DNA of 32,000 bases from Puniceicoccales bacterium (GTDB lineage Bacteria > Verrucomicrobiota > Verrucomicrobiia > Opitutales > JAIRLG01): positions 26,425 to 58,424 of the forward strand of contig JAITRB010000013.1 in assembly GCA_031288595.1 (NCBI GenBank). Reading direction: 5' to 3'. Each line of letters begins with the position of its first letter. Position 1 is the first letter of the stretch. The notes under the pieces are model-generated. The model was not told the DNA's origin and did no database searches. It saw only the letters and a program-made list of their open reading frames with translations. Position numbers and translations under genes: made by a program. Positions 3,525 to 30,739 of this stretch are shown here, in pieces.

Positions 3525-4127
3525 GTACCTATTATGGATGACCTGCGCCCAGAGGCAATTTTTTAATCACTGTCCTGTCGAATCGATGTAAAATCCTGTA
3601 CACACTCGGCGTTTCTTTTCATCAGCTCCAGGTCTGGACGTAAGAAAGCAAGCGGAGCCCCAGCGAGTTCGAAGGATCTTGAAAGCCCGCAATAACAGCG
3701 GGGAAGATGCATTCACTTTGATTGTCCCCACTGATTCGTGCGTGGAATCGTTCCTCCTGACGGACAAGAATTAGCTTCCGAGGTAACGGAGGCCGCCTCT
3801 CAAAGTTCTGAAGGAAAGACACCGCTGGACATTACCGGACATTCCGTCAGAAAAAATAGTTGGCATTCGACTCAAGCTGGCATAAGTCGGAGGGATTAGC
3901 CCCTAAATGTAGGGCATCAAAAAGGGTGAGGGATAAGGGATGCAGGCACCAGAATGGGACTACGGAAGCAGACGAGGAATCGGACTAGAGCCAGGGCTAA
4001 AGCTAGAATTAGAGGGGATTTTGCTCAGGTATTCGATCCATGGCCACCTATAACGCTAGGGCAGCGGTCCCTGAGGCTAAATTCCTTCCAGTCATTCATT
4101 CTTTCCTCTCATTTCCAATTCGTTTTC

Positions 4128-4223
4128 GGGGCTGGCTTTGTCCGAAGGGCAAGGACAGCTGTCCTTGCCCTTCGGACGGCCCGCATCGCGGGCCCGATTT
4201 CTTTGAAATCGAAAGCCAGCCCC
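4128..4223. repeat. Structured intergenic element copy A (closing stem + 3 hairpins; order long-GC-short)
   Basis: Parse: ggggctggcttt | tccgaagggcaaggacag/ctgtccttgcccttcgga (perfect 18-nt arms) | ggcccgc-atc-gcgggcc | cgatttc-ttt-gaaatcg | aaagccagcccc. Read directly from the sequence. Confidence 0.9.
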
Positions 4224-6201: not shown

Positions 6202-7539
6202 ATGGAATCGGAGAGCACTAAGGATCAGGCAGAAAACCTCGAGCACTCTTTTCATCTTCTCATAGAAAAGAAGCGGGACAACGAGGAGCTCAGTGAAGGA
6301 GAGATCCGCTATCTGGCCGAGTCCATCCTCAAGCAGCGCATTTCGGATACGCAGTTGGCTGCCCTCGTCATGGCCATTTACTTCCGCGGACTTTCTCTGC
6401 AGGAAACCTCCCTTTTCACGGAGGAGATGATGCTATCCGGAGAGATTTTCGCCCTGCCGAAAATCGCCCGTCCCAAGATCGATCGCTACGCGACCGGTGG
6501 AGTCGGGGACAAGACGGGACTGGTCCTCATCGTCCTAGCAGCTGCCTGTGGGATCGCCGTTCCCGCCATGCTGGGAGAAGAGGAGGGATTTATCATCAGC
6601 GATCTGGACAAGCTCAGCGCGATTCCAGGCATTTCGGTCGACCTCAAACCCGAGCGTTTCGCCAAGCAGGTACATGATATCGGCTGCGCGATCACGCGGC
6701 AGTTCCAGCAGATCACGCCGATTCATCACCTGCTCTTCCGCATCCGGCAGCAGACAGGCACCATCCCGAGCCTGTCCCTGACGACCTGCAGCCTGCTGAG
6801 CAAGAAATTTTCCGAAGGGGCTGAAGGCGTCGTCGTCGATGTCAAATGGGGCAATGGTTCCTATATTCGCGGCTTCGAAGAGGCGAAGCAGCTCGCCCGC
6901 TTGATCACCCGCGTTGCCAAGGGCATGAACCGGCGCTGCGTGGCGCTGGTCACGGACATGAATCAGCCGCTGGGTAATACCGTCGGTACCGGCCTGGAAA
7001 TCCAGGAAATTATCCGCATCCTGCACGGTGAAGTGGACTCCGAGAGCGACGAGCTGATACTGCGCCTCGGGATGGAAATGGTTCGGCTCGCCGGTGTTGC
7101 GGGCTCGACGCTTTCCGCCAAACAGATGATCAAACGCCACCTCTCCGACGGCACTGCCCTAGCCAAGTTCCGCGAAATGGTCGTGGCCCAGGGAGGGGAT
7201 GGAAGCTACATCGATAATCCGGACAAATTTCCCAAGGCTTCCCAGGTGCGTAGGTTATCGGCCATGAAGCGCGGCTATGTCCACACCATCGATGCGGGCC
7301 TGATCGCCCGTGGGGTTGATCTGCTCTCACGACGACCGGACAACAGTATCGACCACTCCGTCGGCATCTCCGAGATCAAGAAGGTCGGTGCTCAGATTAA
7401 GCAGGGCGAATCGCTTATGACGGTTCACTACAATGACGAGACCCATCTCGAAGCGGCATTGGAATACCTGCGCTCCGCCCATCGCCTAGCCCCCAAACGC
7501 CCTGCCGAAAATGACCTCATCGCCGAACGAGTGGCGTAG
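6202..7539 (+). CDS. deoA: Thymidine / pyrimidine-nucleoside phosphorylase
   Basis: 445-aa ORF with ATG start. N-terminal helical domain (ISDTQLAALVMAIYFRGLSLQE), phosphate-binding TGGVGDKT, and typical length and C-terminal domain. Confidence 0.9.
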   Translation: MESESTKDQAENLEHSFHLLIEKKRDNEELSEGEIRYLAESILKQRISDTQLAALVMAIYFRGLSLQETSLFTEEMMLSGEIFALPKIARPKIDRYATGGVGDKTGLVLIVLAAACGIAVPAMLGEEEGFIISDLDKLSAIPGISVDLKPERFAKQVHDIGCAITRQFQQITPIHHLLFRIRQQTGTIPSLSLTTCSLLSKKFSEGAEGVVVDVKWGNGSYIRGFEEAKQLARLITRVAKGMNRRCVALVTDMNQPLGNTVGTGLEIQEIIRILHGEVDSESDELILRLGMEMVRLAGVAGSTLSAKQMIKRHLSDGTALAKFREMVVAQGGDGSYIDNPDKFPKASQVRRLSAMKRGYVHTIDAGLIARGVDLLSRRPDNSIDHSVGISEIKKVGAQIKQGESLMTVHYNDETHLEAALEYLRSAHRLAPKRPAENDLIAERVA

Positions 7540-7790: not shown

Positions 7791-7877
7791 TCCGCCGTCT
7801 TTGCAAGCCACAAACCGCAGGTTTGTGGCTTGATGCCCGCAGAGCGGGCGATTCCTTCGGAATCCAAAGACGGCGAA
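7791..7877. repeat. Structured intergenic element copy D (order long-GC-short)
   Basis: Parse: cgccgtcttt | caagccacaaac-cgcag-gtttgtggcttg | gcccgc-aga-gcgggc | gattcc-ttc-ggaatc | aaagacggcg. Confidence 0.9.
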
Positions 7878-9290: not shown

Positions 9291-9460
9291 ATAAAACAAT
9301 CCTTATTCCTACCTTACCCTATGCCTTAGAAGAGGATATTTTATAATTTCCCTTTTGAAATCTTTTTTGGGGGAAGATTTCCCTCAAAAAGCCACGAAAA
9401 AGGCTGCCAGCTCTCTCTTCTTCCTTTTCCAGGACGCAGCAGATCTGCATCATCGTCCCG

Positions 9461-9507
9461 CCCCCAAATGTCCAGCCGAAAATGACCTCATCGTCGAGCG
9501 AGTGGCC
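9461..9507 (+). pseudogene. Displaced remnant copy of the deoA 3' end
   Basis: 41/47 nt are identical to 7490-7536. It translates to PKCPAENDLIVERVA versus deoA PKRPAENDLIAERVA, with no stop at the homologous position. Weaker similarity extends ~12 nt further upstream. Confidence 0.65.
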
Positions 9508-9538
9508 GTTTACCGTCTCCGTTCGTCCGGCGGGCTTC

Positions 9539-9632
9539 CGCCTTTGAGCCCTTCGGGCTCCCGCCCGCTATGCGGGCTGCGATGAGGAAAAATGAAAGCT
9601 TCCGCTTTGCATTTTTCCTCATCGCAAAGGCG
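9539..9632. repeat. Structured intergenic element copy H (order short-GC-long)
   Basis: Parse: cgccttt | gagccc-ttc-gggctc | gcccgc-tat-gcgggc | gcgatgaggaaaaatg-(aaagc-ttcc-gcttt-g)-catttttcctcatcgc | aaaggcg. Confidence 0.85.
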
Positions 9633-9728
9633 TCAAACCCCAATTCCGAGATCACGCCAAATCAGGGACACAGTCACAACACCAGACTGAAAATTTATTC
9701 GTAAATATCGAACAGCATCTCCCCTCCT

Positions 9729-9802
9729 TGGCTGCCCGACCAGGATTCGAACCTAGACAAACTGAACCAAAATCAGTTGTGCTACCATTACACCATCGGG
9801 CA
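9729..9802 (-). tRNA. tRNA-Gln (anticodon TTG)
   Basis: Reverse complement: TGCCCGA TG GTGT AATGGTA GCAC A ACTGA TTTTGGT TCAGT TTGT CTAGG TTCGAAT CCTGG TCGGGCA G CCA. It shows a 7-bp acceptor stem with U1:A72, T-loop TTCGAAT, an anticodon loop with TTG at positions 34-36, and an encoded CCA. Length 74 nt. Confidence 0.9.
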
Positions 9803-11490: not shown

Positions 11491-11587
11491 CTTCGCTGGC
11501 TTTCCAGGGCCCAAATGATAGAAAATCATTTGGGCCCTGGGGCCCGCTGCGCGGGCCCGATTTCTCCGAAATCGAAAGCCGGCGAAG
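11491..11587. repeat. Structured intergenic element copy C (order long-GC-short)
   Basis: Parse: cttcgctggcttt | ccagggcccaaatgat-agaaa-atcatttgggccctgg | ggcccgc-tgc-gcgggcc | cgatttc-tcc-gaaatcg | aaagccggcgaag. The closing stem is 13 bp with one G.T pair. Confidence 0.9.
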
Positions 11588-14415: not shown

Positions 14416-14816
14416 CGGCAGCGCTTGCCCTCTATTGCCCGGGATGACTTTTCTTCTCCTAATTTCCCATCCCCAGTCCCTATTTACTCACTTAATAGGA
14501 GGAGTTGGGATTTCAGTTCTATATTTTAGGTTTTCTGATGCGTGGCTGCGGTAGCATGAAGGACATGACGGGCTTATACCTCTTTAAAAATATTCTAGAT
14601 ACACCGTCTCTCTCTCGAGTAATCCCAAGAAGGACCTTCCCATGACTTACTTTGGGGAGATAGGATTACAGCCCATCTTCCCCTGTGAGAGAGCTGCCAT
14701 CCTCTCGATGAGGGTTCCCAAAACCAACGATGAGGATTCAAAAGACAATCGAGCCCCATGGCCTCAATAACGCAAGCACCATAAGCTAACGTGCCTCATC
14801 CTTGTCTTTGGCGATC

Positions 14817-16958: not shown

Positions 16959-17141
16959 TCAGGTTCTCCTTAGGTCCCAGGACTTACGGAGAACCACATT
17001 CAATGAATTTTGAGGAAAGTAGATAGAGACACTTAGCAAGCCTTTGCTCAAAAAAATTTTACCCGGAAGCGCCGGTGTAGGCAAAAATCCCCAAGAACCG
17101 GCGGCCCTAGGGCACCTCAGATGCCACCGCTGTGCCCCAGA

Positions 17142-17234
17142 CGACTGTCTTTGGCTCCCTTCGGGAGCGCCCGCACAGCGGGCCCCAATGGAGGGAATAA
17201 AAGAATTTTATTCCCTCCATTGCAAAGACAGTCG
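17142..17234. repeat. Structured intergenic element copy E (order short-GC-long)
   Basis: Parse: cgactgtcttt | gctccc-ttc-gggagc | gcccgc-aca-gcgggc | caatggagggaataaaa-gaa-ttttattccctccattg | aaagacagtcg. Confidence 0.9.
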
Positions 17235-17307
17235 CCCCCACCTCAGTGAACCGAGGAATTAACGATTGAATTCCCCTAAGAAGCACCTAGAGTGCCGCTC
17301 CACACAC

Positions 17308-18960: not shown

Positions 18961-19056
18961 GGGGGCTGGCTTTCGATTTCGAAGAAATCGGGCCCGCGAC
19001 GCGGGCTTTCCGAAGGGAAAGGATATTGTCCTTTCCCTTCGGACAAAGCCAGCCCC
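18961..19056. repeat. Structured intergenic element copy B (order short-GC-long; near-identical inverted copy of A)
   Basis: Parse: ggggctggcttt | cgatttc-gaa-gaaatcg | ggcccgc-gac-gcgggc | tccgaagggaaagga-tattg-tcctttcccttcgga | c aaagccagcccc. Confidence 0.9.
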
Positions 19057-20346: not shown

Positions 20347-20370
20347 CGCCGAAGGGGGCATATTTGCCTA

Positions 20371-20399
20371 TTGTCAAAACCAGGAAAATTTCATTTAAT
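20371..20399 (+). promoter_or_regulatory. Putative sigma70-like promoter of fbaB
   Basis: TTGTCA (20371-20376), a 17-nt spacer, then TTTAAT (20394-20399), 21 nt before the ATG at 20420. Pattern match only. Confidence 0.3.
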
Positions 20400-20419
20400 A
20401 GTTAAAACTCATCGCTCTT

Positions 20420-21469: not shown

Positions 21470-21502
21470 GCCTTTCATAGGGAAAGGCCCTTTGAGAGAA
21501 CG

Positions 21503-21531
21503 CCCTGGAGTCCTTCCAGGGTTTTGTTTTT
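21503..21531 (+). terminator. Rho-independent terminator downstream of fbaB
   Basis: ccctgga-gtcct-tccaggg followed by ttttgttttt. It is preceded by a second hairpin gcctttc-atagg-gaaaggc at 21470-21488. Confidence 0.7.
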
Positions 21532-21613
21532 CCTCAAAGCGCATCGCAGAGGATAAATGGCTGAGGCCGGGGCCTCTTGCAGAGGATCCTGAGGAGGACC
21601 GTTGTGGGGCTTG

Positions 21614-21715
21614 GGGCCACCTTTAACGGTGCGGAAAATAAAAAGGTTTTTTTATTTTCCTGCGCCGCAGGCCCGCGCAGCGGGCCGGGAACCCGAAGGG
21701 CTCCAAAGGTGGCCC
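21614..21715. repeat. Structured intergenic element copy G (order long-GC-short)
   Basis: Parse: gggccaccttt | (cggtgc)ggaaaataaaaa-ggtt-tttttattttcc(tgcgccg) | ggcccgc-gca-gcgggcc | ggaaccc-gaa-gggctcc (one mismatch) | aaaggtggccc. Confidence 0.85.
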
Positions 21716-21882
21716 TGCCGCGACCCCAGCCCCTCTCTTTAGCGCTGAGAACCCAAGTCTCCTGGGCCCATCCCCGTTCCGGGAGCTTCTTTCCCTCCTC
21801 AAACTTTCCAGCCAAAGCCAACGAAGCTCGGCAGCCAATCCAGAACTCACGTTCCTCTAAAACCGGATTATAATTCTCCGCC

Positions 21883-22257
21883 ATGTGCAATTGTGACAGC
21901 TGGACGAGCCGGAGCATTTTCATCCTGGAGCTCAGCATCGCCCTGATTTCCACCGTCACCAGCCTAATGCTCTTGGCGCAAAGCCGACGTCGCGCACGGC
22001 AGAGGGCGGCGTCAAGCGCAGGGAGCCCGAAAGCTCCCTCCTGCTTCGAAAAACTTCTAACCCTCTTGCCGGAAAAGGTTCTGGGCTATGGGAAGCAAGT
22101 TTTTCAAAAACTCGTGGAATTTCTTCGCCCCATGCTCTCCCGGGTCACTTCGTCGCTGCTGGGCTCCATCCGCAAGATCGCCAATTCCCTCCTCCAAGCA
22201 ACAGAAAGATCCGGAAGGTCCTCCCCAAAACAGGTGTCCCCAGAAAAGGGCAAATAG
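21883..22257 (+). CDS. Hypothetical small protein (possible first gene of phage block)
   Basis: 124-aa ORF with ATG start, a hydrophobic N-terminal segment (IFILELSIALISTVTSLMLL) and a basic tail. It ends 14 nt before the next ORF. No recognisable family. Confidence 0.4.
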   Translation: MCNCDSWTSRSIFILELSIALISTVTSLMLLAQSRRRARQRAASSAGSPKAPSCFEKLLTLLPEKVLGYGKQVFQKLVEFLRPMLSRVTSSLLGSIRKIANSLLQATERSGRSSPKQVSPEKGK

Positions 22258-22270
22258 GATTTTCTTCGCC

Positions 22271-22624
22271 ATGAAAGAGCCGAAAAATTTTCAGAACACC
22301 TCGGAGCACCTGCGGAGGGCTCAGCTGCCTATCCGGGAGATACTGCAGCGCTGGGCCTCCTCTCACGAGACCGTGCAGGCCTCCCTCGCCTGCGTCTGGG
22401 AGCTCTTCTTCGATATCCTGCAGCAACAGGAGGAGATCTCGCTCGCCGACCTGAACACCGCCTCGGGCATCATCCAAAAGCTCTCGGCCTGCCACAGCCA
22501 GCTCGCAGCCCTGGAGGCGAAGAAGCATGAGGACTCCGTGGGCGATGAGGCCTCGGAACATCTGAGTCCGCAGCTCTCACCGGAAATCCTCGAGGCCATT
22601 GAACGGCAGCTGCAGCTGCTCTGA
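22271..22624 (+). CDS. Hypothetical phage protein upstream of terminase (possible small terminase subunit)
   Basis: The in-frame ATG at 22271 inside track ORF 22088..22624 gives 117 aa. Its stop lies 5 nt before the terminase start. The role is suggested by position only. Confidence 0.5.
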   Translation: MKEPKNFQNTSEHLRRAQLPIREILQRWASSHETVQASLACVWELFFDILQQQEEISLADLNTASGIIQKLSACHSQLAALEAKKHEDSVGDEASEHLSPQLSPEILEAIERQLQLL

Positions 22625-22629
22625 AGCCT

Positions 22630-24018
22630 ATGCTCACCCGACGACATCCATTCTTTCTCCCCTATCAAGAACGCTGGATCCGCGACGAATCCCAACTGAA
22701 AATCCTGGAGAAATCCCGGCAAATCGGGATGACCTGGGCCACGGCCTACCGGCTCGTCCGTCGGCACGCCGACCGCCGGCAGCGGCTCGATTCCTGGGTC
22801 AGCTCCCGGGACGAGATTTCGGCCAAGCTCTTTCTCGAGGACTGCAAATCCTTTCGGGATATCCTGCACGCGGCGGCACAGGAGTTCGGCCGTACTCTCT
22901 GCACCGATGAGGGACGAGACAGCAGCTATTCTCTCCGCTTCCGCAACCGCACGCAGATTCACTCGCTCTCCTCGAATCCCGACACCCAAGCTGGCAAGCG
23001 CGGCACGCGCGTTCTCGACGAGTTCGCCCTGCATCCGCAGGCGGAGCAACTCTACAGCACCGCCATCCCGGGTATCACCTGGGGAGGGCAGCTCGAAATT
23101 CTCTCGACCCATCGGGATGCCGAGCATCTCTTCAACCGCCTGATCCAGGAGGTCCTCCACAACGGCAATCCCAAGCAATTTTCCCACCACCGGGTCACGC
23201 TCGAAGATGCCCTGGAACAGGGGCTTCTGCCGCGCATTCAGGAAAAGCTTCCCGCCGAAGATCCGCGGCGGGCGATGACGGAGGCGGATTACTACGAGCA
23301 CATCCGGCAGAGCTGTATCGACGAGGATTCCTTTCGGCAGGAGTACCTCTGCTGTCCCTTCCAGGAGGGCAATTCCTTTCTCCCGCTCCCGCTGATTCAG
23401 GACTGCGAGTACGCCGATGGCGAAACCTGGGAGTGCGGTCCGTCGGCCATCACGCAGGACTGCTACCTCGGCATCGACATCGGTCGGGAACACGACCTCA
23501 GCGTCTTCTGGCTCCTGGAGAAGGAAAAGGACATCGCCTATACGCGCCAAATCATCTGTGCGCAGCGGATGCGCTTTTCGGAGCAGGAAGTGCTCCTGAA
23601 ATCCTTCTTCGCCCTACCCTCGCTGCGCCGCGTCTGCATCGATCAGAGCGGCATCGGGCGCCAGTTTACCGAACGCGCCATCGAACATTTCGGCTCCTAC
23701 CGCGTCGAAGGCATCACCTTCAGCTCCGCCATCAAGGAACGGCTCGCCTACGAACTGCGCCGGGCATTCGAGCAGCGGCAGTTGAGAATTCCGGCCGAGC
23801 GCAGCATTCGGGCAGACCTGCGCTCCATCAAACGGGAAAATACCTTCGCCGGCAATGCTCGCTTCTCAGCCGAACGGAATAAAAACGGTCATGCCGACCG
23901 CTTCTGGGCGCTGGCCCTGGCCTGGCACGCCGGACAGAGTCCCAGGACCGCCTCATTTTCCCACTTCACCTCCATTCCCTGGCACCAGTCCCACCATTCC
24001 TGGAGGGGAAGCCTTTAA
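22630..24018 (+). CDS. Phage terminase large subunit (Mu gp28-like)
   Basis: 462 aa. The N-terminus FLPYQERWIRDESQLKILEKSRQIGMTWA carries the Walker-A-like KSRQIG.T of this terminase family. An acidic nuclease-type C-terminal half follows, and the portal gene lies immediately downstream. Confidence 0.8.
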   Translation: MLTRRHPFFLPYQERWIRDESQLKILEKSRQIGMTWATAYRLVRRHADRRQRLDSWVSSRDEISAKLFLEDCKSFRDILHAAAQEFGRTLCTDEGRDSSYSLRFRNRTQIHSLSSNPDTQAGKRGTRVLDEFALHPQAEQLYSTAIPGITWGGQLEILSTHRDAEHLFNRLIQEVLHNGNPKQFSHHRVTLEDALEQGLLPRIQEKLPAEDPRRAMTEADYYEHIRQSCIDEDSFRQEYLCCPFQEGNSFLPLPLIQDCEYADGETWECGPSAITQDCYLGIDIGREHDLSVFWLLEKEKDIAYTRQIICAQRMRFSEQEVLLKSFFALPSLRRVCIDQSGIGRQFTERAIEHFGSYRVEGITFSSAIKERLAYELRRAFEQRQLRIPAERSIRADLRSIKRENTFAGNARFSAERNKNGHADRFWALALAWHAGQSPRTASFSHFTSIPWHQSHHSWRGSL

Positions 24019-24022
24019 GCCT

Positions 24023-25228
24023 ATGAAATATTCCTCGCAAATTTCCGACGGCCGCATCGCGCATTCCCTGCGCCTGCAGTTCAATCCCATTCGGCAGCTG
24101 AATCCCGAGACCCTGTCGCACATCCTCGACAGTTTTTCCTCGGGATACTTGAAACCGGCAGCCCTCGCCTGGGAAGCCATCGAGCGGCGAGACGACATCC
24201 TCCAGGGCGTCGCCGCCAAGCGCAAGAAATCCGTCGCGCGCCTCCCCTGGGAAATCCTGAGCATCGACCGTTCGCCCGAGGCGATGAAGCAGAAGGAGGC
24301 CCTGGAATATTTTTACAACAACCTTCGGGCGACCCATGCCTGTGACCGCAACATCTGCGGCGGCTTCGCCCTGCTGGTCAAGCAGATGATGGACGCTGTC
24401 GGGAAGAAATACGCCGTCCACGAGATCGTCTACCAGGAACCGATGAAAAATGCCTCCGGAGACTTTCTCCTCTCCGCCGAATTCCGCTTCGTCCCGCTGT
24501 GGTTTTTCGAAAACCGCCACGGGCACCTGCAGTTTTTGGAACAGGAAGGCTCCCTGGAAGGTATCGCGCTGGATCCCGGCTCCTGGATGGTGACGCACGG
24601 GGATGGATTGATGGAGGCCTGTTCCATCGCCTACCTCTTCAAACATCTCCCTCTGCGCGATTGGCTCGTCTACTGCGAGCGCAATGGCATGCCGGGGGTC
24701 AAAGGAGTCACCAGTGCCCAACCCGGAAGCGAGGAGTGGGAGAGCGCCAAGTCCGCCGTCGAGTCCTTCGGTGCCGAATTCAATGCCCTGATGACGGTGG
24801 GGACACAGATCGAGGCCATCGACTTAAGCAGCCGCGGAGAACTGCCCTATCCTCCTCTGGTCGACCGCATGGATCGGGCGATGGCAGCTCTGTGGCGTGG
24901 CTCCGACCTCACAACCCTGTCCCGCAATGCCGGGACCGGCGCTTCCCTCCAGGGCGATGAATGTATCCTGCTGGAGGAGGACGACGCCTGTACGATTTCC
25001 GAGACGCTCAACCAACAGGTCGATGTCCCTGTGCTGCGCTACCTCTTCGGCGAAGGGCCGGTCAAGGCCTATGTCCGGCTCATGCCCAAGACCCGTCGGG
25101 ATCTACAAGCGGAAATCCGCCTCTACCGCGAGCTCTACGAGATGGGGATCTCCTTTTCCGCGGAAAAAATGCGTGAACACTTCGGTATCCCCATTCCCGG
25201 CGAAGACGAAATCACCCTGAAAAAATAG
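24023..25228 (+). CDS. Phage portal protein (DUF935 / Mu gp29-like)
   Basis: The ATG at 24023 is in frame with track ORF 23855..25228 and 5 nt after the terminase stop. The region LDSFSSGYLKPAALAWEAIERRDDILQGVAAKRKKSVARLPWEI matches the conserved N-terminal pattern of DUF935 portals as I recall it. Confidence 0.75.
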   Translation: MKYSSQISDGRIAHSLRLQFNPIRQLNPETLSHILDSFSSGYLKPAALAWEAIERRDDILQGVAAKRKKSVARLPWEILSIDRSPEAMKQKEALEYFYNNLRATHACDRNICGGFALLVKQMMDAVGKKYAVHEIVYQEPMKNASGDFLLSAEFRFVPLWFFENRHGHLQFLEQEGSLEGIALDPGSWMVTHGDGLMEACSIAYLFKHLPLRDWLVYCERNGMPGVKGVTSAQPGSEEWESAKSAVESFGAEFNALMTVGTQIEAIDLSSRGELPYPPLVDRMDRAMAALWRGSDLTTLSRNAGTGASLQGDECILLEEDDACTISETLNQQVDVPVLRYLFGEGPVKAYVRLMPKTRRDLQAEIRLYRELYEMGISFSAEKMREHFGIPIPGEDEITLKK

Positions 25229-25253
25229 GAGGCGAACACCCGATAAATTCCTC

Positions 25254-26156
25254 ATGGATAAGGTTTTACAGGAAATCCCGTGGCCCGAGGAGACTCCGAC
25301 CGGTTCGGCAATCAGGCGCTGGCTCCGAATCAGTGCCTATGGTCATTACCCCCATCCGCAGGGCTTACAGTGCATCGACCGTGTCGCAGTCCAGGCGATG
25401 GTGGAGCACTTCAAATCTTTTCGCGGACGTCTGCGGCGCCGCTTCGGCGGCCTTCCGGTCTACATCGGCCATCCGGATGACCCGCAGCTCCGCCAACAGC
25501 CCGGGCATCAGGATACCCGCGCCTACGCATGGATTCAGGATCTGGAGGCTCGGGAGGACGGACTGCACGGGCTCATCAAATGGTCGGACGCCGGCCTGGA
25601 GCTCCTCCGCAATGCCTTTTTCAAGTTTTTCTCCCCGCGTTGGGAGATGCAGGTCATCGGGCCAGGGCAGTTTCGACCCATTCGCCTCCTGTCCATCGGC
25701 CTCACCAATTACCCCAACATCCCGGGCGATGCGATCGCCAACCAGGAAGTGAGCGAGGGAAAAGCACCGGCGGCCGTCACCCGAGAAGAGGCTTATGGAA
25801 CATCCCCCGGCCATCCGGTTCCCGCCGATGACACGCTTAGGAAAGAGACAGGGATTTCCGCAGAACTCGAACATTTTCTGGCTCAGGGCCTGAACGGAGG
25901 ACATATCCTCCCCAACGAATGCGCCGCATGGGCCCGCCGCTACGGCGAGGATCCGGAAAGGGCCAGCGAGGAGATGCAGGCCCAGAAGCACGGACTCCAT
26001 CTTCAGGCTCACAGCGCTTCGCTCCAGGAGGCCAATCCATCGGCCGCCTCCCGGGAACAAATCCTCTCCCACGTTCATCGGCGCATCCGGGACTTCGGCG
26101 AGAGCTACACCGATGCCTGGGCCGCCGTGCGCCAGTCCTATCCCCAGCTCTTTTGA
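25254..26156 (+). CDS. Phage head protease/scaffold (Mu gpI-like)
   Basis: 300 aa, positioned between portal and capsid. The N-terminal region (ISAYGHYPHPQG...PVYIGHPD) and the C-terminal tail (SYTDAWAAVRQSYPQLF) resemble Mu-like prophage protein I. Confidence 0.6.
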   Translation: MDKVLQEIPWPEETPTGSAIRRWLRISAYGHYPHPQGLQCIDRVAVQAMVEHFKSFRGRLRRRFGGLPVYIGHPDDPQLRQQPGHQDTRAYAWIQDLEAREDGLHGLIKWSDAGLELLRNAFFKFFSPRWEMQVIGPGQFRPIRLLSIGLTNYPNIPGDAIANQEVSEGKAPAAVTREEAYGTSPGHPVPADDTLRKETGISAELEHFLAQGLNGGHILPNECAAWARRYGEDPERASEEMQAQKHGLHLQAHSASLQEANPSAASREQILSHVHRRIRDFGESYTDAWAAVRQSYPQLF

Positions 26157-26185
26157 AAAAGGCTTTTTATCCCATCATCACGACA

Positions 26186-26608
26186 ATGAAATCCATACCT
26201 ATCCTCTTCTCCAACATCGCCGGCGAGACCCATCGCTCGCACATCACCTACCGGGCCGGCGAGGCCATCACACGCCATCGCCTCGTCAAGCTCTCCCCGG
26301 ACGGAACGGCGGTCAGCGTCGCCGGAATCGGTGATCGGCCCATCGGCCTATCCACCGACGAAGCCGCTCCGGGCGAGATGCTCGACATCGCATTGCTCGG
26401 TTCCTCCGACACCCTCACGGCCCAGGCCAGCGGCAGCATCCAAGCCGGAGACATCCTGGTGCCAGCCACCGAGGGCCATGTCCAAGCCCTGCCTGCCACC
26501 ACTGGCAGCTACAGGCAAATCGGCATCGCGCTGCGACCGGCCGTCGCTGATGCCCTGGTCGAGATCATGCCCTGCGTTCCTTGTCCGTACACGGTCGATG
26601 GCAACTAA
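26186..26608 (+). CDS. Head decoration-type protein (DUF2190-like)
   Basis: The ATG at 26186 in track ORF 25919..26608 gives 140 aa. The Gly/Ala-rich beta pattern (VAGIGDRPIGLSTDEAAPGEMLDIALLG...IQAGDILV) and the position just before the capsid gene fit this family. Confidence 0.55.
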   Translation: MKSIPILFSNIAGETHRSHITYRAGEAITRHRLVKLSPDGTAVSVAGIGDRPIGLSTDEAAPGEMLDIALLGSSDTLTAQASGSIQAGDILVPATEGHVQALPATTGSYRQIGIALRPAVADALVEIMPCVPCPYTVDGN

Positions 26609-26628
26609 CCCTTTTAACATCCTATCCC

Positions 26629-27600
26629 ATGATGAATCTCTACGAAAGACTTCCCCGGGACGACGGGCTTCAGGACTACGGCACCATCTGCGCGGCCAAT
26701 GAATCGCGCTTCAACGCGAGTCACTACTCGGAACTCCTCAGCACCTTCACCGCAGGCTGGAGAGATCCCGAGCACCTGGCCGAGCTGCTGGACTTCATCG
26801 CGCCTCCGATTCCCGTCGCCCGACGATTCGAGTTCAAGGTCGCCGACAATGGAGAGGCCTTTCTCTCCGAATCCGACGACATTCGGGCCATCGGTTCTGC
26901 CTTCAAGCGCATCGAATTCAGCGGCAGTTCCGTCACAGCCAAGACCTTCAACAAGGGCCTGACGATCCGGGTCGACCACGACGATGTCGCCGGTGACAAC
27001 TGGCGGGAGCGCTATGTCCAACTCCTATTACAGCGGCTCTACCGGAATGAATTGCGTCGGGCTATCGCGGCCCTGGAAGGCAGTGCCTCTTTCCTCAGCG
27101 CGAGCTACGTCTGGAGCCCCACGACAGGAACACCGAATCCCGACGCCGACATCCGGGCCGAACTGGCTGCGGCCGCCGAGCTTACAGGCATTCGGCCGAA
27201 TCGGCTCATCATCGGCGAAGGGGCCTGGGACCTGCGCTCGGATGCCTACGACCACCAGGACAACGCCGGCTCGCAGCGCTCGGCCGGACTCAGCCCCACC
27301 GAACTCGCCCAGAAGCTCTTCGTCGACGAGGTGAGGCTTATCCGGGCGCGCTACCAAGGCAGTGCGAGCAAAGATGCCATGCTCGGCAATACGATCTATG
27401 CCTTCCAGTCCCAGAACGGAATTCTCAAGGACGAGTCCTCCAATATAAAGCGCTTCGTCACACCGGTGGACGGCCACAGTTCCTTCCGGGTCTATCTGGA
27501 GGAGCACAGCAAGTTCAGCGACATCAGCGTCGAGCACTACAGCCATATCCTGATCACCTTCAACCAGGGCATCCGCAAGCTCAGCGTCATCGCCGCCTAG
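26629..27600 (+). CDS. Phage major capsid protein
   Basis: The ATGATG at 26629 in track ORF 26581..27600 gives 323 aa. Size and position (after protease and decoration genes) fit a capsid protein, and a large structured non-coding gap follows. The family is not resolved. Confidence 0.65.
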   Translation: MMNLYERLPRDDGLQDYGTICAANESRFNASHYSELLSTFTAGWRDPEHLAELLDFIAPPIPVARRFEFKVADNGEAFLSESDDIRAIGSAFKRIEFSGSSVTAKTFNKGLTIRVDHDDVAGDNWRERYVQLLLQRLYRNELRRAIAALEGSASFLSASYVWSPTTGTPNPDADIRAELAAAAELTGIRPNRLIIGEGAWDLRSDAYDHQDNAGSQRSAGLSPTELAQKLFVDEVRLIRARYQGSASKDAMLGNTIYAFQSQNGILKDESSNIKRFVTPVDGHSSFRVYLEEHSKFSDISVEHYSHILITFNQGIRKLSVIAA

Positions 27601-27621
27601 GGCTCGCTTGGCCTCCGGTCA

Positions 27622-27718
27622 CTGCCATGGCCCCCTTTGCTCCGCAAAGGGCGGCGTTCCTCCGGAACGCCGCGGTCGGCCCCCTCGGTTCCACCGAGGG
27701 GCCGACGGGCCATGGCAG
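27622..27718. repeat. Structured element copy I (divergent; inside prophage, after capsid gene)
   Basis: Parse: ctgccatggcc(c) | cctttgc-tcc-gcaaagg | ggcgttcc-tcc-ggaacgcc | gtcggcccctcgg-ttccac-ccgaggggccgac | gggccatggcag. The topology matches copies A-H but it has no GCCCGC clamp. Confidence 0.75.
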
Positions 27719-27836
27719 CCCCAGCAGCCGACTTCTCGCCCTTCCTTTTCCCACAACAAGCCCGGCCTTTCCGTCCCAATATCCGTCCTCTAATCCTCAT
27801 CCGCCTCTTCTCCCAAAAGTATATTTTCAAAAAAAT

Positions 27837-28301
27837 ATGATACCCTGGATCACGATTTCACCGGAAATGGTCTACGACTATCTGGCAGCACCTCAGGTCG
27901 AGGGCCTCCGGCATTCCGCCCTTGCCCAGCAGCAGGAAGATCCCCTTCCGGAGATCATCCGTGACATCTGCGAGCAGATGCGCGCGGAGATCAGCGCCCA
28001 GCCGCAGAACCGGCTCGACCGCAGGGCCCATACCATTCCGCCCCATCTGAAGGCAACAGCCTGCTGGCTCATCATCGAGGCAGCCCAGACCCGCATTCCC
28101 GGCCTGAAGGCAAGCGAGGACCAGATTCGTCTGGCGGAACAGGCCCACCAGCGACTCCAGCGCATCGCCCAGGGAGAACTGCCCCTCGGGCAGCCGGACA
28201 GCAGCGACACCAGCGTTACCTACCGGCGCCCAGGGGCCCGCATCGACATCCTTCACCGGCGGCAGGGCCAGGCCACCGGCCATACACTCAGCGGATTTTG
28301 A
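27837..28301 (+). CDS. Head-tail connector-type protein (DUF1320 / Mu gp36-like)
   Basis: The ATG at 27837 in track ORF 27627..28301 gives 154 aa. The upstream part of the track ORF runs through the structured element. The pattern IIRDICEQMRAEI...ATACWLIIEAAQ...RLQRIAQGELPL resembles DUF1320. Confidence 0.5.
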   Translation: MIPWITISPEMVYDYLAAPQVEGLRHSALAQQQEDPLPEIIRDICEQMRAEISAQPQNRLDRRAHTIPPHLKATACWLIIEAAQTRIPGLKASEDQIRLAEQAHQRLQRIAQGELPLGQPDSSDTSVTYRRPGARIDILHRRQGQATGHTLSGF

Positions 28302-28302
28302 A

Positions 28303-28773
28303 ATGCAGAACCGAGCACCCAGCGTGCTGGAGGCCCTTCAGCGGGAGGTTTACGAGACCCTGTGCCAAATCGGCGGCTTCCGCGAGCTGCCGCTTCACTT
28401 CGGCTCACCCAGCAACTTCGAGGCCCAGCTCCGCCATCGGACCGAGATGAGCAGCGGCCTTCACCTCTACGTCCATCCGCCCATTCCACTGCGCATTGAG
28501 GAGGGCCTAGAGGGCCCGCTCTTCGATGAACTCGACCTCTGTATCGAGGTATTGGAACATTCTCTCAGCAACAACAGCCACTGGAGCGCCATCGCCGTCG
28601 CTGAGGAAGTCTGCCGGCAGCTCCACGGATTCGCCCTCTCTCCACCGGCCCTGCAGGGGCAGCTGGTCTGCCGATCGGACAGGCCCTGGGATTACGCCTT
28701 CGAAAACAGTCTTAGTCGTCTCCGGCTCCACTTCACGGCCACCGGCAGTCTCTCAATGCCCTCTTCATCATGA
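28303..28773 (+). CDS. Hypothetical phage head-completion/adaptor protein
   Basis: 156-aa ORF. Its ATG lies 1 nt after the previous stop, and its stop overlaps the next ATG (ATGA). Confidence 0.6.
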   Translation: MQNRAPSVLEALQREVYETLCQIGGFRELPLHFGSPSNFEAQLRHRTEMSSGLHLYVHPPIPLRIEEGLEGPLFDELDLCIEVLEHSLSNNSHWSAIAVAEEVCRQLHGFALSPPALQGQLVCRSDRPWDYAFENSLSRLRLHFTATGSLSMPSSS

Positions 28774-29174
28774 AAATCACCTTCGGCTCCCTCTCCCTCG
28801 CCGCCGGATTGGAATTCGGCGAATCTCCCTATGAGCTCAGGATTCAGGGGCATCGCCAGGTACAGATTGCGGAGCGCATCCGCGGTGACGAGATCAGGGC
28901 CTTCGATCGCGGGAATCTGCAGACCCAGTTCAGCTTCCGGGTCAAACGGAAGCACGATTCCGCCGAGGCTGCCCAGGCCTATGCCCTGTCTCACGCTGCC
29001 ACCCTTGCCCAGCAGAACGGCCCCCTGCGTCTCATCAACGAGCCCGGCGAGACGAGCTACACGCTCTCCGATGCTTCGGTCACACGGGTGGAATCCTCCA
29101 GTTCCCACAACATCTCCTTCCACAGCTACCAGATGGTCGGAGGTAAATTCACCGCTTCCACACAACTTTTCTGA
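28770..29174 (+). CDS. Hypothetical phage structural protein
   Basis: 134-aa ORF, translationally coupled by an ATGA overlap with the preceding ORF. Confidence 0.6.
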   Translation: MKITFGSLSLAAGLEFGESPYELRIQGHRQVQIAERIRGDEIRAFDRGNLQTQFSFRVKRKHDSAEAAQAYALSHAATLAQQNGPLRLINEPGETSYTLSDASVTRVESSSSHNISFHSYQMVGGKFTASTQLF

Positions 29175-29191
29175 AAAAAAACGATTCCACC

Positions 29192-30613: not shown

Positions 30614-30735
30614 TGGACGAGAGCATTCAGGCGGAACTGCAGGCCCTCTACCAGCAACTGCGGGAGCAGGAAGCCGCGACGCAGGCGGCGCTCCAACAGC
30701 TCAGCTCGCGCCTCGACAACCTGAGAAATTTTTAG
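30610..30735 (+). CDS. Small coiled-coil ORF (41 aa), not in the ORF track
   Basis: The ATG overlaps the fibre gene stop (ATGA at 30610-30613). Hand translation gives MMDESIQAELQALYQQLREQEAATQAALQQLSSRLDNLRNF, with TAG at 30733-30735. Confidence 0.45.
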   Translation: MMDESIQAELQALYQQLREQEAATQAALQQLSSRLDNLRNF

Positions 30736-30739
30736 GAAA

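What the first reader, a model, noticed from the sequence alone, without database searches (positions are those of the whole stretch)
11491..11587. Constant scaffold but swapped, perfectly self-complementary long arm; paired substitutions preserve stems
Copies at 4128, 11491 and 18961 share three parts: the closing stem (GCTGGCTTT / AAAGCC[A/G]GC), the clamp (GGCCCGC-N3-GCGGGCC) and the short hairpin (CGATTTC-N3-GAAATCG). Their long arms are unrelated in sequence. The 4128 arm is TCCGAAGGGCAAGGACAG/CTGTCCTTGCCCTTCGGA, and the 11491 arm is CCAGGGCCCAAATGAT-agaaa-ATCATTTGGGCCCTGG. Both pair perfectly (18 and 16 nt arms). Copies 4128 and 18961 are inverted near-identical copies and differ in the arm by a double change that keeps pairing (GGGCAAGG/CCTTGCCC versus GGGAAAGG/CCTTTCCC). 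Copy 20262 changes the clamp on both sides (GCCCAC/GTGGGC). All nine long arms differ in sequence yet have perfectly paired cores. This implies either strong selection on structure, or a mechanism that writes both halves of an arm from one template (fold-back synthesis or intra-palindrome conversion). The pattern resembles a variable cassette on a fixed scaffold.
Basis: seen in the sequence. Interest (0 to 1): 0.75.

Follow-up and report, generated by a model that had tools for sequence, protein, structure and literature searches.

The report
Cloverleaf-folding intergenic repeat family, Puniceicoccales
The window carries eight (plus one atypical) copies of an undescribed 85-110 nt intergenic repeat from a Puniceicoccales bacterium. 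Each copy folds into a four-way junction, and its stems stay paired through evolution while its longest arm changes sequence fastest, so this is an unusually shaped relative of REP/MITE-type repeats and not a programmable cassette.

Summary
The element at 11491-11587 is one of eight copies of a repeat in the 22 kb of host DNA in the window, and a ninth, atypical copy lies inside a phage-derived gene cluster. Every copy folds as a closing stem plus three hairpins: a long arm, a GCCCGC-N3-GCGGGC clamp and a short 6-7 bp hairpin. The fold z-score is about -10 to -11. No Rfam family matches.

The source is a Puniceicoccales MAG. Relatives with at least 87% DeoC identity carry copies at the same intergenic positions. 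Two relatives at 78-80% identity, 1.16 Mb of unrelated genomes and 0.73 Mb of viral contigs carry none.

Across 18 copies, 97% of pair cells are paired and 29 of 37 pairs show changes on both sides. In close orthologous pairs the loops diverge at the neutral rate (29%) and stem nucleotides at about 6%. Ten pairs changed on both sides and stayed paired. None changed on both sides and broke.

"Selection on structure" is therefore supported. "Fixed scaffold with a swapped cassette" is only partly supported:
- all four helices covary;
- arm similarity tracks scaffold similarity;
- most orthologous arms are conserved;
- the arm searched (11491) matches no phage or plasmid.

G-U pairs are nearly absent and orientation relative to genes is mixed. 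Both point to a strand-symmetric, REP/MITE-like palindromic element. Replication template switching probably contributes to arm turnover. I class it as a new variant of a known kind.

The parts
11492..11586 (+). Cloverleaf repeat copy (the finding). Closing stem of 15 bp, arm of 15-16 bp, clamp GGCCCGC-N3-GCGGGCC, short hairpin CGATTTC-N3-GAAATCG. It lies between the start of pyrH (- strand) and the next + strand gene.
   Evidence: (94 bits)
4128..4223 (+). Cloverleaf copy with the same scaffold subfamily as 11492. The 17-18 bp arm is palindromic through its centre, with no spacer. It lies between pilT (-) and rseP (+).
   Evidence: (87 bits)
7791..7877 (+). Cloverleaf copy between the convergent thymidine phosphorylase and glycosyltransferase genes. 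Its ortholog in L197 differs only at the arm apex (loop plus one adjoining pair, now G-T), in the clamp loop and in the flank.
   Evidence: (80 bits)
9532..9640 (-). Cloverleaf copy downstream of tRNA-Gln. Its 22-bp arm has a nested AAAGC-N4-GCTTT tip. This arm type recurs in L192 (two loci), L194 and L200.
   Evidence: (64 bits)
17141..17235 (-). Cloverleaf copy between the rho (-) and PPIase (+) starts. At this site L192 has a copy in the opposite orientation and L194 has none.
   Evidence: (90 bits)
18962..19056 (-). Cloverleaf copy, a near-identical inverted copy of 4128. It starts 35 nt after the PPIase stop codon. It is absent from the same intergenic region in L192 and L194.
   Evidence: I1, I3; 92 bits
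20262..20346 (-). Cloverleaf copy between the RNase HII-family gene and deoC, with clamp GCCCAC/GTGGGC. Copies sit at the same position and in the same orientation in L191-L194 and L200, about 75-110 nt before the deoC start and just upstream of a conserved promoter-like motif.
   Evidence: (68 bits)
21613..21716 (+). Cloverleaf copy downstream of deoC, lying after a canonical hairpin-plus-T-run terminator at 21502-21531. This is a slightly degraded copy: a bulge and a G-T in the arm and an A-C mismatch in the short hairpin. Orthologs occur in L191, L193 and L194; the L200 copy is truncated.
   Evidence: (70 bits)
27622..27718 (-). Atypical cloverleaf with a different consensus (closing stem GCCATGGCCC, three hairpins whose loops are all GGA on this strand). 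It starts directly after the capsid gene of the phage-derived cluster. It is conserved as a fold, with compensatory changes, in L191, L192, L193 and L194.
   Evidence: (20.8 bits)

Best explanation
This is a lineage-specific family of composite palindromic intergenic repeats in a Puniceicoccales bacterium. Each unit is 85-110 nt. It folds, on either strand, into a four-way junction with almost no unpaired linker:
- a 9-15 bp closing stem with inner consensus ..GCCGYCTTTG / CAAAGRCGGC..;
- a long arm of 12-22 bp;
- a GC clamp, GCCCGC-N3-GCGGGC;
- a short 6-7 bp hairpin with a triloop.

Shown:
- The units occupy most of the longer intergenic regions.
- They are present or absent, or differently oriented, at some loci in related genomes.
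- At other loci they have been kept at the same position since before synonymous sites saturated.
- Pairing in all four helices is under purifying selection. The clamp and short hairpin are also conserved in sequence. The closing stem is intermediate. The long arm is constrained mainly to pair, so it diverges fastest.

Inferred:
- The family spread as a non-autonomous mobile element of the REP/REPIN/MITE type.
- It persists because the fold is needed either for its own propagation as single-stranded DNA or for a host role at transcription-unit boundaries, such as 3'-end protection, read-through blocking or a supercoiling or protein-binding site, as proposed for REPs.
- Because the stems are almost purely Watson-Crick and orientation is mixed, the relevant fold is strand-symmetric. 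I take it to act at the DNA level, or as RNA in either orientation.
- Multi-base, mirror-symmetric changes at arm tips are most simply produced by replication template switching within the palindrome, followed by selection. This would explain 'swapped yet perfect' arms without any cassette mechanism.
For: Family and fold:
- Eight copies at 64-94 bits in 22 kb of host DNA, and none of this type in the phage-derived part of the window.
- All 22 examined elements give a closing stem plus three hairpins. Fold z-scores are -10 to -11.
- No Rfam match at the gathering threshold or at E <= 0.1.

Distribution:
- The source is a Puniceicoccales MAG.
- Copies occur in relatives L191-L194, L197 and L200.
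- There are none in L198 and L201 (78-80% DeoC identity), none in 1.16 Mb of other phyla and none in 0.73 Mb of viral contigs.

Covariation: 97.1% of cells are paired, 29 of 37 pairs change on both sides, and slid-partner controls give 35-56% paired.

Selection, measured in close orthologous pairs:
- Third-position identity of the neighbouring deoC gene is 0.71-0.76 for the window-L191 and L193/L194/L200 comparisons. It was not measured for the window-L197 pair.
- Unpaired positions changed in 29 of 99 cases.
- Of 291 pairs, 261 were unchanged, 14 changed on one side, 10 changed on both sides and kept pairing, and 0 changed on both sides and broke.
- By module, 19% of arm pairs changed, 10% of closing-stem pairs and 3.6% of clamp plus short-hairpin pairs.

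Strand symmetry:
- 896 Watson-Crick pairs, 12 G-T, 4 A-C and no other mismatches. Fold energies are nearly equal on the two strands.
- Orientation relative to the upstream gene is three the same and three opposite.
- One copy lies after a canonical terminator and three lie between divergent gene starts.

Mobility-like behaviour:
- c18962 is absent from L192 and L194. The rho-upstream site holds an oppositely oriented copy in L192 and none in L194.
- Near-identical arms (0.87-0.91) occur at non-orthologous loci in genomes whose synonymous sites are saturated.

Long-term retention: the element upstream of deoC has the same orientation and spacing in six genomes, and the capsid-downstream fold is present in five.

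Precedents:
- REPIN spacers keep hairpin pairing through compensatory changes (PMC3116915).
- REPs are linked to supercoiling, termination and mRNA stability (PMC3733652).
- Template switching creates and repairs hairpin stems (PMC8794818).
Against: - No transposase or RAYT gene could be tied to the family. The only Y1 transposase seen, in L194, is an AT-rich pseudogene with no cloverleaf beside it.
- No target-site duplication was found.
- No empty and filled sites close enough in sequence to define element ends were available.
- Retention at the same site across saturated divergence is unusual for a purely selfish repeat and suggests a host function that I cannot name.
- Only 18 core copies, from about 100 kb of five lineages, were available. 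The genome-wide copy number and the fraction of degenerate copies are unknown.
- The alignment used for covariation was fitted to the model, so it leans towards the structure.
- The G-T versus A-C count (12 versus 4) leans slightly towards one strand and is not significant.
Confidence: 0.6

Rival explanations
1. Templated palindrome conversion is the main cause of the perfect arms. Replication template switching or fold-back synthesis copies one half of an arm onto the other. A mutation or indel in one half is then either reverted or mirrored in a single event, and selection plays only a minor part.
For: - L193 and L194 downstream of deoC share an identical scaffold and the proximal 8 bp of the arm. 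In the distal 11 bp, four pairs changed on both sides, all transversion-type, and this happened at only 12% coding divergence.
- The L193 arm upstream of deoC differs from L194 and L200 by what look like mirror-symmetric deletions and a new palindromic tip, on an almost unchanged scaffold.
- About half of the ten both-side changes are transversion-type, with no G-U intermediate available (my reading of the alignments).
- The apex of c7791 versus L197 is explained better by a loop inversion plus 2 transitions than by 4 substitutions (my reading).
- The c4128 arm is a palindrome with no spacer.
- G-T pairs make up only 1.3% of pairs.
- The mechanism is established (PMC8794818, PMC5941160).
Against: - Conversion alone would let stems drift at about the neutral rate. 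Stem nucleotides actually change about five times more slowly than loops. The clamp and short hairpins hardly change at all (3.6% of pairs), and three of the orthologous arms are essentially unchanged. Selection is therefore needed in any case.
- Single-sided mismatches do persist (14 pairs; 16 G-T or A-C mismatches).
- The sample is small and no ancestral-state reconstruction was possible.
Confidence: 0.2
2. It is a structured RNA element with a specific job, for example a non-canonical terminator, a processing site or a 3'-end stabiliser at operon boundaries. On this view it is maintained at the RNA level and has multiplied by duplication.
For: - Very strong covariation.
- Orthologous retention beyond synonymous saturation directly between a stop codon and the next promoter-like motif.
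- A cloverleaf is conserved immediately after the capsid gene of the phage-derived cluster in five genomes.
- c18962 and c20262 start 35-47 nt after stop codons with no canonical terminator in between.
Against: - Orientation relative to the transcribed strand is mixed (3 the same, 3 opposite).
- G-U pairs, which functional RNAs use freely, are almost absent, and both strands fold equally well.
- In the capsid-downstream copies of L192 and L193, the G-T pairs lie on the antisense strand, so the mRNA would carry A-C mismatches there.
- c21613 and its orthologs lie after a conserved canonical terminator.
- Three copies lie between divergent gene starts.
- No T-run follows the fold.
- No Rfam family matches.
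Confidence: 0.15
3. It is a programmable or 'cassette' element. The long arm would be an acquired, information-bearing insert, spacer-like or guide-like, installed on a constant scaffold by a dedicated mechanism.
For: - Three window copies share a 46-nt scaffold with unrelated arms.
- One orthologous site shows arm restructuring on a constant scaffold.
Against: - Both halves of each arm are self-complementary, so no single-stranded guide is exposed.
- Arms are conserved at most orthologous sites.
- Arm similarity tracks scaffold similarity, and no arm is shared between dissimilar scaffolds.
- The 11491 element has no match in 2.3 Gb of phage or 7.3 Gb of plasmid sequence.
- Scaffold and arm patterns are absent from viral contigs.
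- No associated enzyme gene is seen near any copy.
Confidence: 0.03

Closest known systems
REP / BIME elements and REPINs (repetitive extragenic palindromes; RAYT-associated)
   Same: - High-density, extragenic, GC-rich palindromic repeats specific to a lineage.
- They fold on either strand.
- A conserved core sits next to a variable but pairing-preserving segment. REPIN spacers show frequent compensatory changes (PMC3116915).
- Proposed roles at gene 3' ends, namely supercoiling, termination and mRNA stability (PMC3733652).
- Another member of the same phylum (Verrucomicrobia), Opitutus terrae, is rich in REPs (PMC3733652).
   Different: - The unit is 85-110 nt with four helices forming a junction. 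A REP is a single 20-40 nt hairpin and a REPIN is one long hairpin.
- The three hairpins are different palindromes, not alternating copies of one unit as in BIMEs.
- There is no GTAG or CGTC tag at a stem foot.
- No RAYT gene could be linked to the family.
Bacterial MITEs (for example Correia/NEMIS, ERIC, RUP, Nezha)
   Same: - Similar size.
- The ends are inverted repeats (the closing stem, with a partly conserved inner consensus).
- Intergenic location and presence/absence differences between relatives.
- Very stable predicted RNA or ssDNA folds.
   Different: - No target-site duplication was found.
- The outer part of the closing stem is not conserved in sequence and covaries instead.
- The interior is three perfect palindromes rather than a remnant of an insertion sequence.
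- Several copies have been retained at the same site across saturated divergence.
Template-switch (quasipalindrome) mutagenesis as a creator and maintainer of hairpins (PMC8794818, PMC5941160)
   Same: It explains one-step multi-base compensatory changes, homogenised inverted-repeat arms and loop inversions. These are the patterns seen at the arm tips of the L193/L194/L200 and c7791/L197 comparisons.
   Different: It is a mutational process, not an element family. Here it can only be a contributor, because the stems evolve far more slowly than the loops.
Multi-hairpin mobile GC-rich palindromic elements of organelle genomes (yeast mitochondrial GC clusters, PMC4478555; fungal double-hairpin elements, from my own knowledge)
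   Same: Short, GC-rich, multi-hairpin palindromic units that multiply in intergenic DNA without coding capacity.
   Different: A different host domain, unrelated sequences, usually one or two hairpins, and no four-way junction with a closing stem.

Membership tests
REP (classical repetitive extragenic palindrome) | A single imperfect palindrome of about 20-40 nt | tested here: not met
   Units are 85-110 nt with a closing stem and three hairpins.
REP (classical repetitive extragenic palindrome) | A GTAG (or CGTC) tetranucleotide tag at one foot of the stem (PMC3733652) | tested here: not met
   Reading the 18 copies, there is no GTAG or CGTC at the stem feet. GTAG and CGTC occur only by chance across some clamp loops, for example GCGTAGC in L193, L194 and L200 and GCGTCGC in c18962.
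REP (classical repetitive extragenic palindrome) | High copy number and extragenic location | tested here: met
   Eight copies in 22 kb of host DNA, all between the larger ORFs, most of which have Pfam matches. The genome-wide count is not available.
REP (classical repetitive extragenic palindrome) | An associated RAYT (Y1/HUH transposase) gene flanked by the repeats | not testable with these tools
   Only about 100 kb of the clade could be fetched. The single Y1_Tnp hit (L194 4124-4294, weak) is an AT-rich pseudogene with no cloverleaf beside it.
BIME / REPIN | Two or more copies of the same REP in alternating orientation (in a REPIN, two inverted REPs forming one long hairpin) | tested here: not met
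   The three hairpins are distinct palindromes, and the fold is a junction, not one hairpin.
MITE | Terminal inverted repeats conserved in sequence among copies | tested here: inconclusive
   The closing stem is an inverted repeat of 9-15 bp. Only its inner approximately GCCGYCTTTG part is semi-conserved, and 10 of its 13 pairs covary.
MITE | Target-site duplication flanking the element | tested here: not met
   No consistent direct repeat flanks the 18 copies.
MITE | Insertion polymorphism between related genomes | tested here: met
   c18962 is absent from L192 and L194. The rho-upstream site holds an inverted copy in L192 and is empty in L194. The L200 copy downstream of deoC is truncated. 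Exact empty sites could not be aligned because the genomes are too diverged.
MITE | A parent autonomous insertion sequence with the same ends | not testable with these tools
   No whole genome of the clade was accessible.
Any Rfam RNA family (including tRNA and tRNA-like) | A match to a curated covariance model | tested here: not met
   Only the real tRNA-Gln at 9729-9802 is found. Around 11491 there are only sub-threshold microRNA-type chance hits.
Intrinsic (Rho-independent) terminator | A GC-rich hairpin directly followed by a T-run on the transcribed strand | tested here: not met
   No T-run follows the closing stem on either strand. The scan flags only the internal clamp of two copies, because of the adjacent CGATTTCTT. 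A genuine terminator lies upstream of c21613.
Integron attC site | R/L core sites (GTTRRRY), extrahelical bases, and a flanking promoterless cassette next to an integrase | tested here: not met
   Reading the sequences, there are no R-box motifs and the stems are perfect. The neighbours are housekeeping genes and no integrase is present.

The most novel reading that the evidence does not exclude
These cloverleafs may not be selfish repeats at all. They may be a previously unrecognised class of host-maintained boundary elements in Puniceicoccales. On this reading they are strand-symmetric four-way-junction DNA (or RNA) structures, kept for very long periods between a stop codon and the next promoter, and after the capsid gene of a domesticated phage cluster. 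A dedicated junction- or hairpin-binding protein would recognise the constant clamp and junction. The arm would be a length and stability module continually rewritten by intrapalindrome template switching. A second cloverleaf family with a different consensus in a more distant relative (L199) would then mark a clade-wide system.
Probability: 0.15. Interest if true: 0.75.

Novelty: new variant of a known kind. Interest (0 to 1): 0.5.

Why it matters
Abundant structured repeats have been studied mainly in Proteobacteria, Firmicutes and cyanobacteria. I found no description of one in Puniceicoccales, and none with a four-way-junction unit, either in Rfam 15 or in the text-searchable literature.

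The family gives an unusually clean natural experiment. Within one 100-nt unit there are helices under sequence-plus-structure constraint, a helix under structure-only constraint, and loops that appear to evolve neutrally. The same sites can be followed across species. That makes the old question of how compensatory evolution keeps long stems perfect (selection versus one-step template switching) directly testable, once complete genomes of the clade are compared.

Practically, these elements will seed spurious ORF calls. Several were seen in the public gene calls over the elements, for example L192 3557-3877 and 6956-7120. They may also break MAG assemblies. They could serve as strain-typing markers.

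Tried and rejected
1. Rfam at the gathering threshold and at permissive E-values found nothing.
2. A loose scaffold pattern in viral contigs gave 109 stretches; the 80 returned as loci (0.73 Mb) all failed the covariance model, so they are chance matches.
3. Three specific scaffold and arm patterns in viral contigs gave no hits.
4. The one metagenome scan, with a scaffold pattern, gave a single chance hit inside GC-rich sequence that does not fit the model. The JGI samples that hold the relatives are evidently not in that collection.
It returned only relatives of 53% identity or less, from other phyla. These were useful only as a 1.16 Mb negative control.
6. A search for the terminase in viral contigs found nothing.
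7. Exact look-ups of two window proteins failed.
8. blastn of the element against phages and plasmids found no match.
9. No target-site duplication was found.
10. No convincing small ORF explains the divergent intergenic regions that hold c4128 and c11492.
11. tRNA-like identity is rejected: ARAGORN and the Rfam tRNA model find only tRNA-Gln.
12. Canonical terminator identity is rejected.
13. A strand preference from G-T versus A-C mismatches (12 versus 4) is not significant and includes terminal pairs.
14. The IS200-like pseudogene in L194 as a possible mobilising RAYT is not supported: it is AT-rich, degraded and not flanked by the repeat.
Full report
**What is there**

The named copies at 4128, 18961 and 20262 also contain the stated motifs and the stated paired substitutions.

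Folding shows that each of these is more than a 'scaffold plus arm'. Each is a four-way junction made of:
- a closing stem;
- a long perfect hairpin (the arm);
- a GCCCGC-N3-GCGGGC hairpin (the clamp);
- a short 6-7 bp hairpin with a triloop.

There are 0-2 unpaired nucleotides at the junction. For the finding itself, the DNA fold is -45.9 kcal/mol (z = -11.2). The opposite strand folded as RNA gives -69.6 kcal/mol (z = -10.2). No shuffle folds as well.

A covariance model built from the window copies (A1, R1) finds eight matches at 64-94 bits. On each element the opposite strand scores only 20-39 bits, so the order of the hairpins gives the element a direction. A ninth, weak match at 27622-27718 is also a closing stem plus three hairpins, but with a different consensus.

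A simple pattern, CTTT..GCCCGCNNNGCGGGC..AAAG, matches 7 times against 0.00 expected. No Rfam family matches, either at the gathering threshold or at E <= 0.1.

**Genomic setting**

The first 22 kb of the window is ordinary chromosome. It carries pilT, rseP, thymidine phosphorylase, tRNA-Gln, frr, pyrH, tlyA, rho, a PPIase, an RNase HII-family gene and a class I aldolase of the DeoC/LacD family, which I call 'deoC'. The remainder is a Mu-like head and tail gene cluster.

The eight typical copies are all intergenic:
- Three lie between co-directional genes.
- One lies between convergent genes.
- One lies downstream of a tRNA.
- Three lie between divergent gene starts.

Orientation relative to the upstream gene is mixed: 7791, 21613 and 9532 are the same, and 18962, 20262 and 27622 are opposite. 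deoC has its own canonical hairpin-plus-T-run terminator at 21502-21531. The cloverleaf at 21613 lies beyond it, and the same arrangement is seen in L193, L194 and L200.

**Source and distribution**

The closest proteins in the public collection are annotated as coming from Puniceicoccales MAGs. A thymidine phosphorylase 100% identical to the window's lies on a 58.4 kb contig.

I fetched contigs of relatives through exact-protein look-ups:
- L191: deoC 88.7% nucleotide identity to the window, third positions 75.7%.
- L192, L193, L194 (identical to L195) and L200: about 77% to the window with third positions saturated at about 48%. L193, L194 and L200 are 88-89% identical to each other.
- L197: thymidine phosphorylase 88% amino-acid identity.

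All of these carry cloverleafs. Two relatives at 78-80% DeoC identity (L198, L201; 35 kb in total) carry none, even with filters off and with a second model built from 18 copies. The model also finds nothing in 1.16 Mb of genomes from other phyla or in 0.73 Mb of viral contigs.

A more distant relative (L199, 68% thymidine phosphorylase identity) has two cloverleafs of a different consensus: closing stem GCAAAAGC/GCTTTTGC and a different hairpin order. One of them starts 16 nt after the thymidine phosphorylase stop codon. The typical family is therefore confined to a narrow clade, but the architecture may be more widespread in the order.

**Is pairing preserved beyond chance?**

Yes. On the 18-copy alignment A3:
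- 97.1% of cells form standard pairs, against 72% in column shuffles and 35-56% with slid partners.
- 29 of 37 pairs show changes on both sides.
- 169 cells changed on both sides, against 49 +/- 6 in shuffles. The alignment was fitted to the model, but the margin is very large.

Counted on the individual folds of 22 elements, there are 896 Watson-Crick pairs, 12 G-T pairs, 4 A-C single mismatches, no other mismatches and 8 bulges.

The strongest evidence comes from orthologous elements in genome pairs whose neighbouring deoC gene differs at 24-30% of third positions. For the window-L197 pair only 88% thymidine phosphorylase amino-acid identity is available.
- Unpaired positions changed at 29 of 99 sites, about the neutral rate.
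- Of 291 base pairs, 261 were unchanged, 14 changed on one side, 10 changed on both sides and stayed paired, and 0 changed on both sides and broke.
- My own back-of-envelope estimate, not a computed control, is that neutral evolution would give roughly 115 one-sided changes and about 13 broken double changes.

By module, 19% of arm pairs changed, 10% of closing-stem pairs and 3.6% of clamp plus short-hairpin pairs (this tally adds the L193-L194 pair upstream of deoC, which the 291-pair tally omits). So the whole fold is under purifying selection for pairing, the two short hairpins are also conserved in sequence, and the long arm is the least constrained helix.

**Is it a swapped cassette on a fixed scaffold?**

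Only in a limited sense.

In favour:
- c4128 and c18962 share a roughly 46-nt scaffold with c11492, while their arms are unrelated.
- Upstream of deoC, L193 has almost the same closing stem, clamp (including its GTA loop) and short hairpin as L194 and L200. Its arm, however, is restructured, apparently by mirror-symmetric deletions and a new palindromic tip.
- Downstream of deoC, L193 and L194 share the scaffold and the proximal 8 bp of the arm. They differ in the distal 11 bp by four both-side, transversion-type changes.

Against:
- Across the family every helix covaries.
- Arm identity correlates with scaffold identity (r = 0.38, Mantel p about 0.0005). Every pair with similar arms has a similar scaffold, and no arm is found on a dissimilar scaffold.
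- Three orthologous arms are essentially unchanged at the same divergence: c20262/L191, c7791/L197 and the capsid-downstream element in window/L191.
- One arm type..AAAATG-YAAAGC-N4-GCTTTR-CATTTT.., recurs in c9532, at two loci in L192, and in L194 and L200. Identity is 0.87-0.91 between non-orthologous loci of genomes whose synonymous sites are saturated. Arms therefore belong to subfamilies that spread. They are not unique inserts.
- The element has no similarity to 2.3 Gb of phage or 7.3 Gb of plasmid sequence.

The simplest reading is a repeat family in which the scaffold helices are held by sequence-level constraint and the arm only by pairing. Old copies then look like 'same scaffold, unrelated arm'.

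**At what level does it act?**

Several observations argue against a conventional, one-strand RNA element:
- G-U pairs are nearly absent (1.3% of pairs) and both strands fold equally well.
- Orientation relative to transcription is mixed.
- One copy and its orthologs lie behind a canonical terminator.
- Three copies lie between divergent starts.
- In the capsid-downstream element of L192 and L193, the G-T pairs fall on the antisense strand.

These features fit palindromic DNA elements of the REP/REPIN/MITE kind, which fold as single-stranded DNA or in transcripts of either orientation.

Mobility-like behaviour is seen. c18962 is missing from the same intergenic region in L192 and L194. The rho-upstream region has an oppositely oriented, different copy in L192 and none in L194. 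The L200 copy downstream of deoC is truncated.

Other observations complicate a purely selfish picture. I found no target-site duplication and no linked transposase. The Y1_Tnp fragment in L194 is an unrelated AT-rich pseudogene. Some sites are very old. The copy upstream of deoC has the same orientation and sits 74-111 nt before the start codon, just upstream of a conserved TTGCCA-type promoter-like motif, in six genomes that include saturated comparisons. The capsid-downstream fold is kept in five genomes, with compensatory changes. Such retention suggests either a host-level role at transcription-unit boundaries or a self-maintaining palindrome.

**Mechanism for perfect but changing arms**

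Selection for pairing is demonstrated. In addition, four patterns are the footprints described for replication template switching, which can create or repair a stem in one event (PMC8794818; see also PMC5941160):
- mirrored multi-base changes at arm tips;
- the high share of transversion-type double changes;
- the palindrome with no spacer in c4128;
- one probable loop inversion. The c7791 apex reads CCGCAGG and the L197 apex TCTGTGG. The reverse complement of the window apex, CCTGCGG, differs from L197 by two transitions, whereas the direct comparison needs four changes.

I regard template switching as a likely contributor to arm turnover. With this sample I cannot separate it from selection on independent mutations.

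**Comparison with known systems**

The element works most like REP/REPIN elements. REPINs also show a conserved core with a spacer that keeps pairing through compensatory changes (PMC3116915). REPs are linked to supercoiling, termination and mRNA stability (PMC3733652).

It does not meet the defining REP features: a single 20-40 nt palindrome, a GTAG or CGTC tag, and RAYT linkage (the last could not be tested). It is not a BIME or REPIN arrangement. As a MITE, it has inverted-repeat ends and insertion polymorphism but no target-site duplication, and the outer parts of its ends are not conserved. It is not in Rfam, not tRNA-like, not a canonical terminator and not an attC site.

Text searches of PMC and bioRxiv for cloverleaf or four-way-junction bacterial repeats, and for repeats in Puniceicoccales or Verrucomicrobia, found no description of it.

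**Verdict**

- It is a real, undescribed, clade-specific repeat family with an unusual four-way-junction unit. I class it as a new variant of a known kind.
- Confidence in the best explanation is 0.6. The main limit is that only about 100 kb of the clade could be examined, so genome-wide copy number, the mobilising enzyme and any host function remain unknown.

Noticed in passing
window 22088-32000; L191 1769-11413; L192 9536-15395; L193 3402-12645; L194 9641-18896; L200 2142-5376: The Mu-like gene cluster (large terminase, Mu portal, Mu-like protease, capsid and others) lies directly after deoC, in the same gene order, in six related genomes. In some of these comparisons the synonymous sites are saturated. 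This looks like a vertically inherited, possibly domesticated (GTA-like) phage-derived cluster and not a recent prophage.
   Followed up: partly
window 7480-7535 and 9451-9506: A 56-nt direct repeat (86% identical). The first copy is the 3' end of the thymidine phosphorylase gene and ends just before its stop codon. The second is intergenic, 26 nt from cloverleaf c9532. This suggests that about 1.97 kb carrying c7791 and the glycosyltransferase gene was inserted or duplicated between the gene and an older cloverleaf. In L199 a cloverleaf starts 16 nt after the thymidine phosphorylase stop codon.
   Followed up: no
L194 3850-4294: An AT-rich, frame-broken IS200/IS605-type Y1 transposase remnant lies between rho and the PPIase gene, exactly where the window has cloverleaf c17141. 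No cloverleaf flanks it.
   Followed up: partly
L199 973-1047 and 11351-11436; L199 14304-19647: A relative with 68% thymidine phosphorylase identity has a second type of cloverleaf repeat: closing stem GCAAAAGC/GCTTTTGC, three triloop hairpins, and the GC-rich hairpin in a different position. It also has a tandem array of six genes encoding multi-Myb-domain proteins.
   Followed up: partly
window 20347-20419 and the aligned regions of L191-L194 and L200 (alignment A4): A conserved promoter-like motif (TTGCCA/TTGTCA, then about 17 nt, then TAGACT/TTTAAT) begins about 20 nt after the cloverleaf upstream of deoC in all six genomes. In L191 the motif region is duplicated.
   Followed up: no
window 3525-4127 and 14450-14800: Two long stretches have no convincing ORF and no Rfam match: 600 nt between pilT and cloverleaf c4128, and an AT-rich roughly 350 nt between the convergent GT8 and rho genes. 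The second is the one long intergenic region with no cloverleaf.
   Followed up: no
L192 3557-3877, 5607-5807 and 6956-7120; L200 40-369: Public gene calls place short hypothetical ORFs across the cloverleaf elements or in the intergenic regions that hold them. These are probably annotation artefacts caused by the repeats.
   Followed up: no
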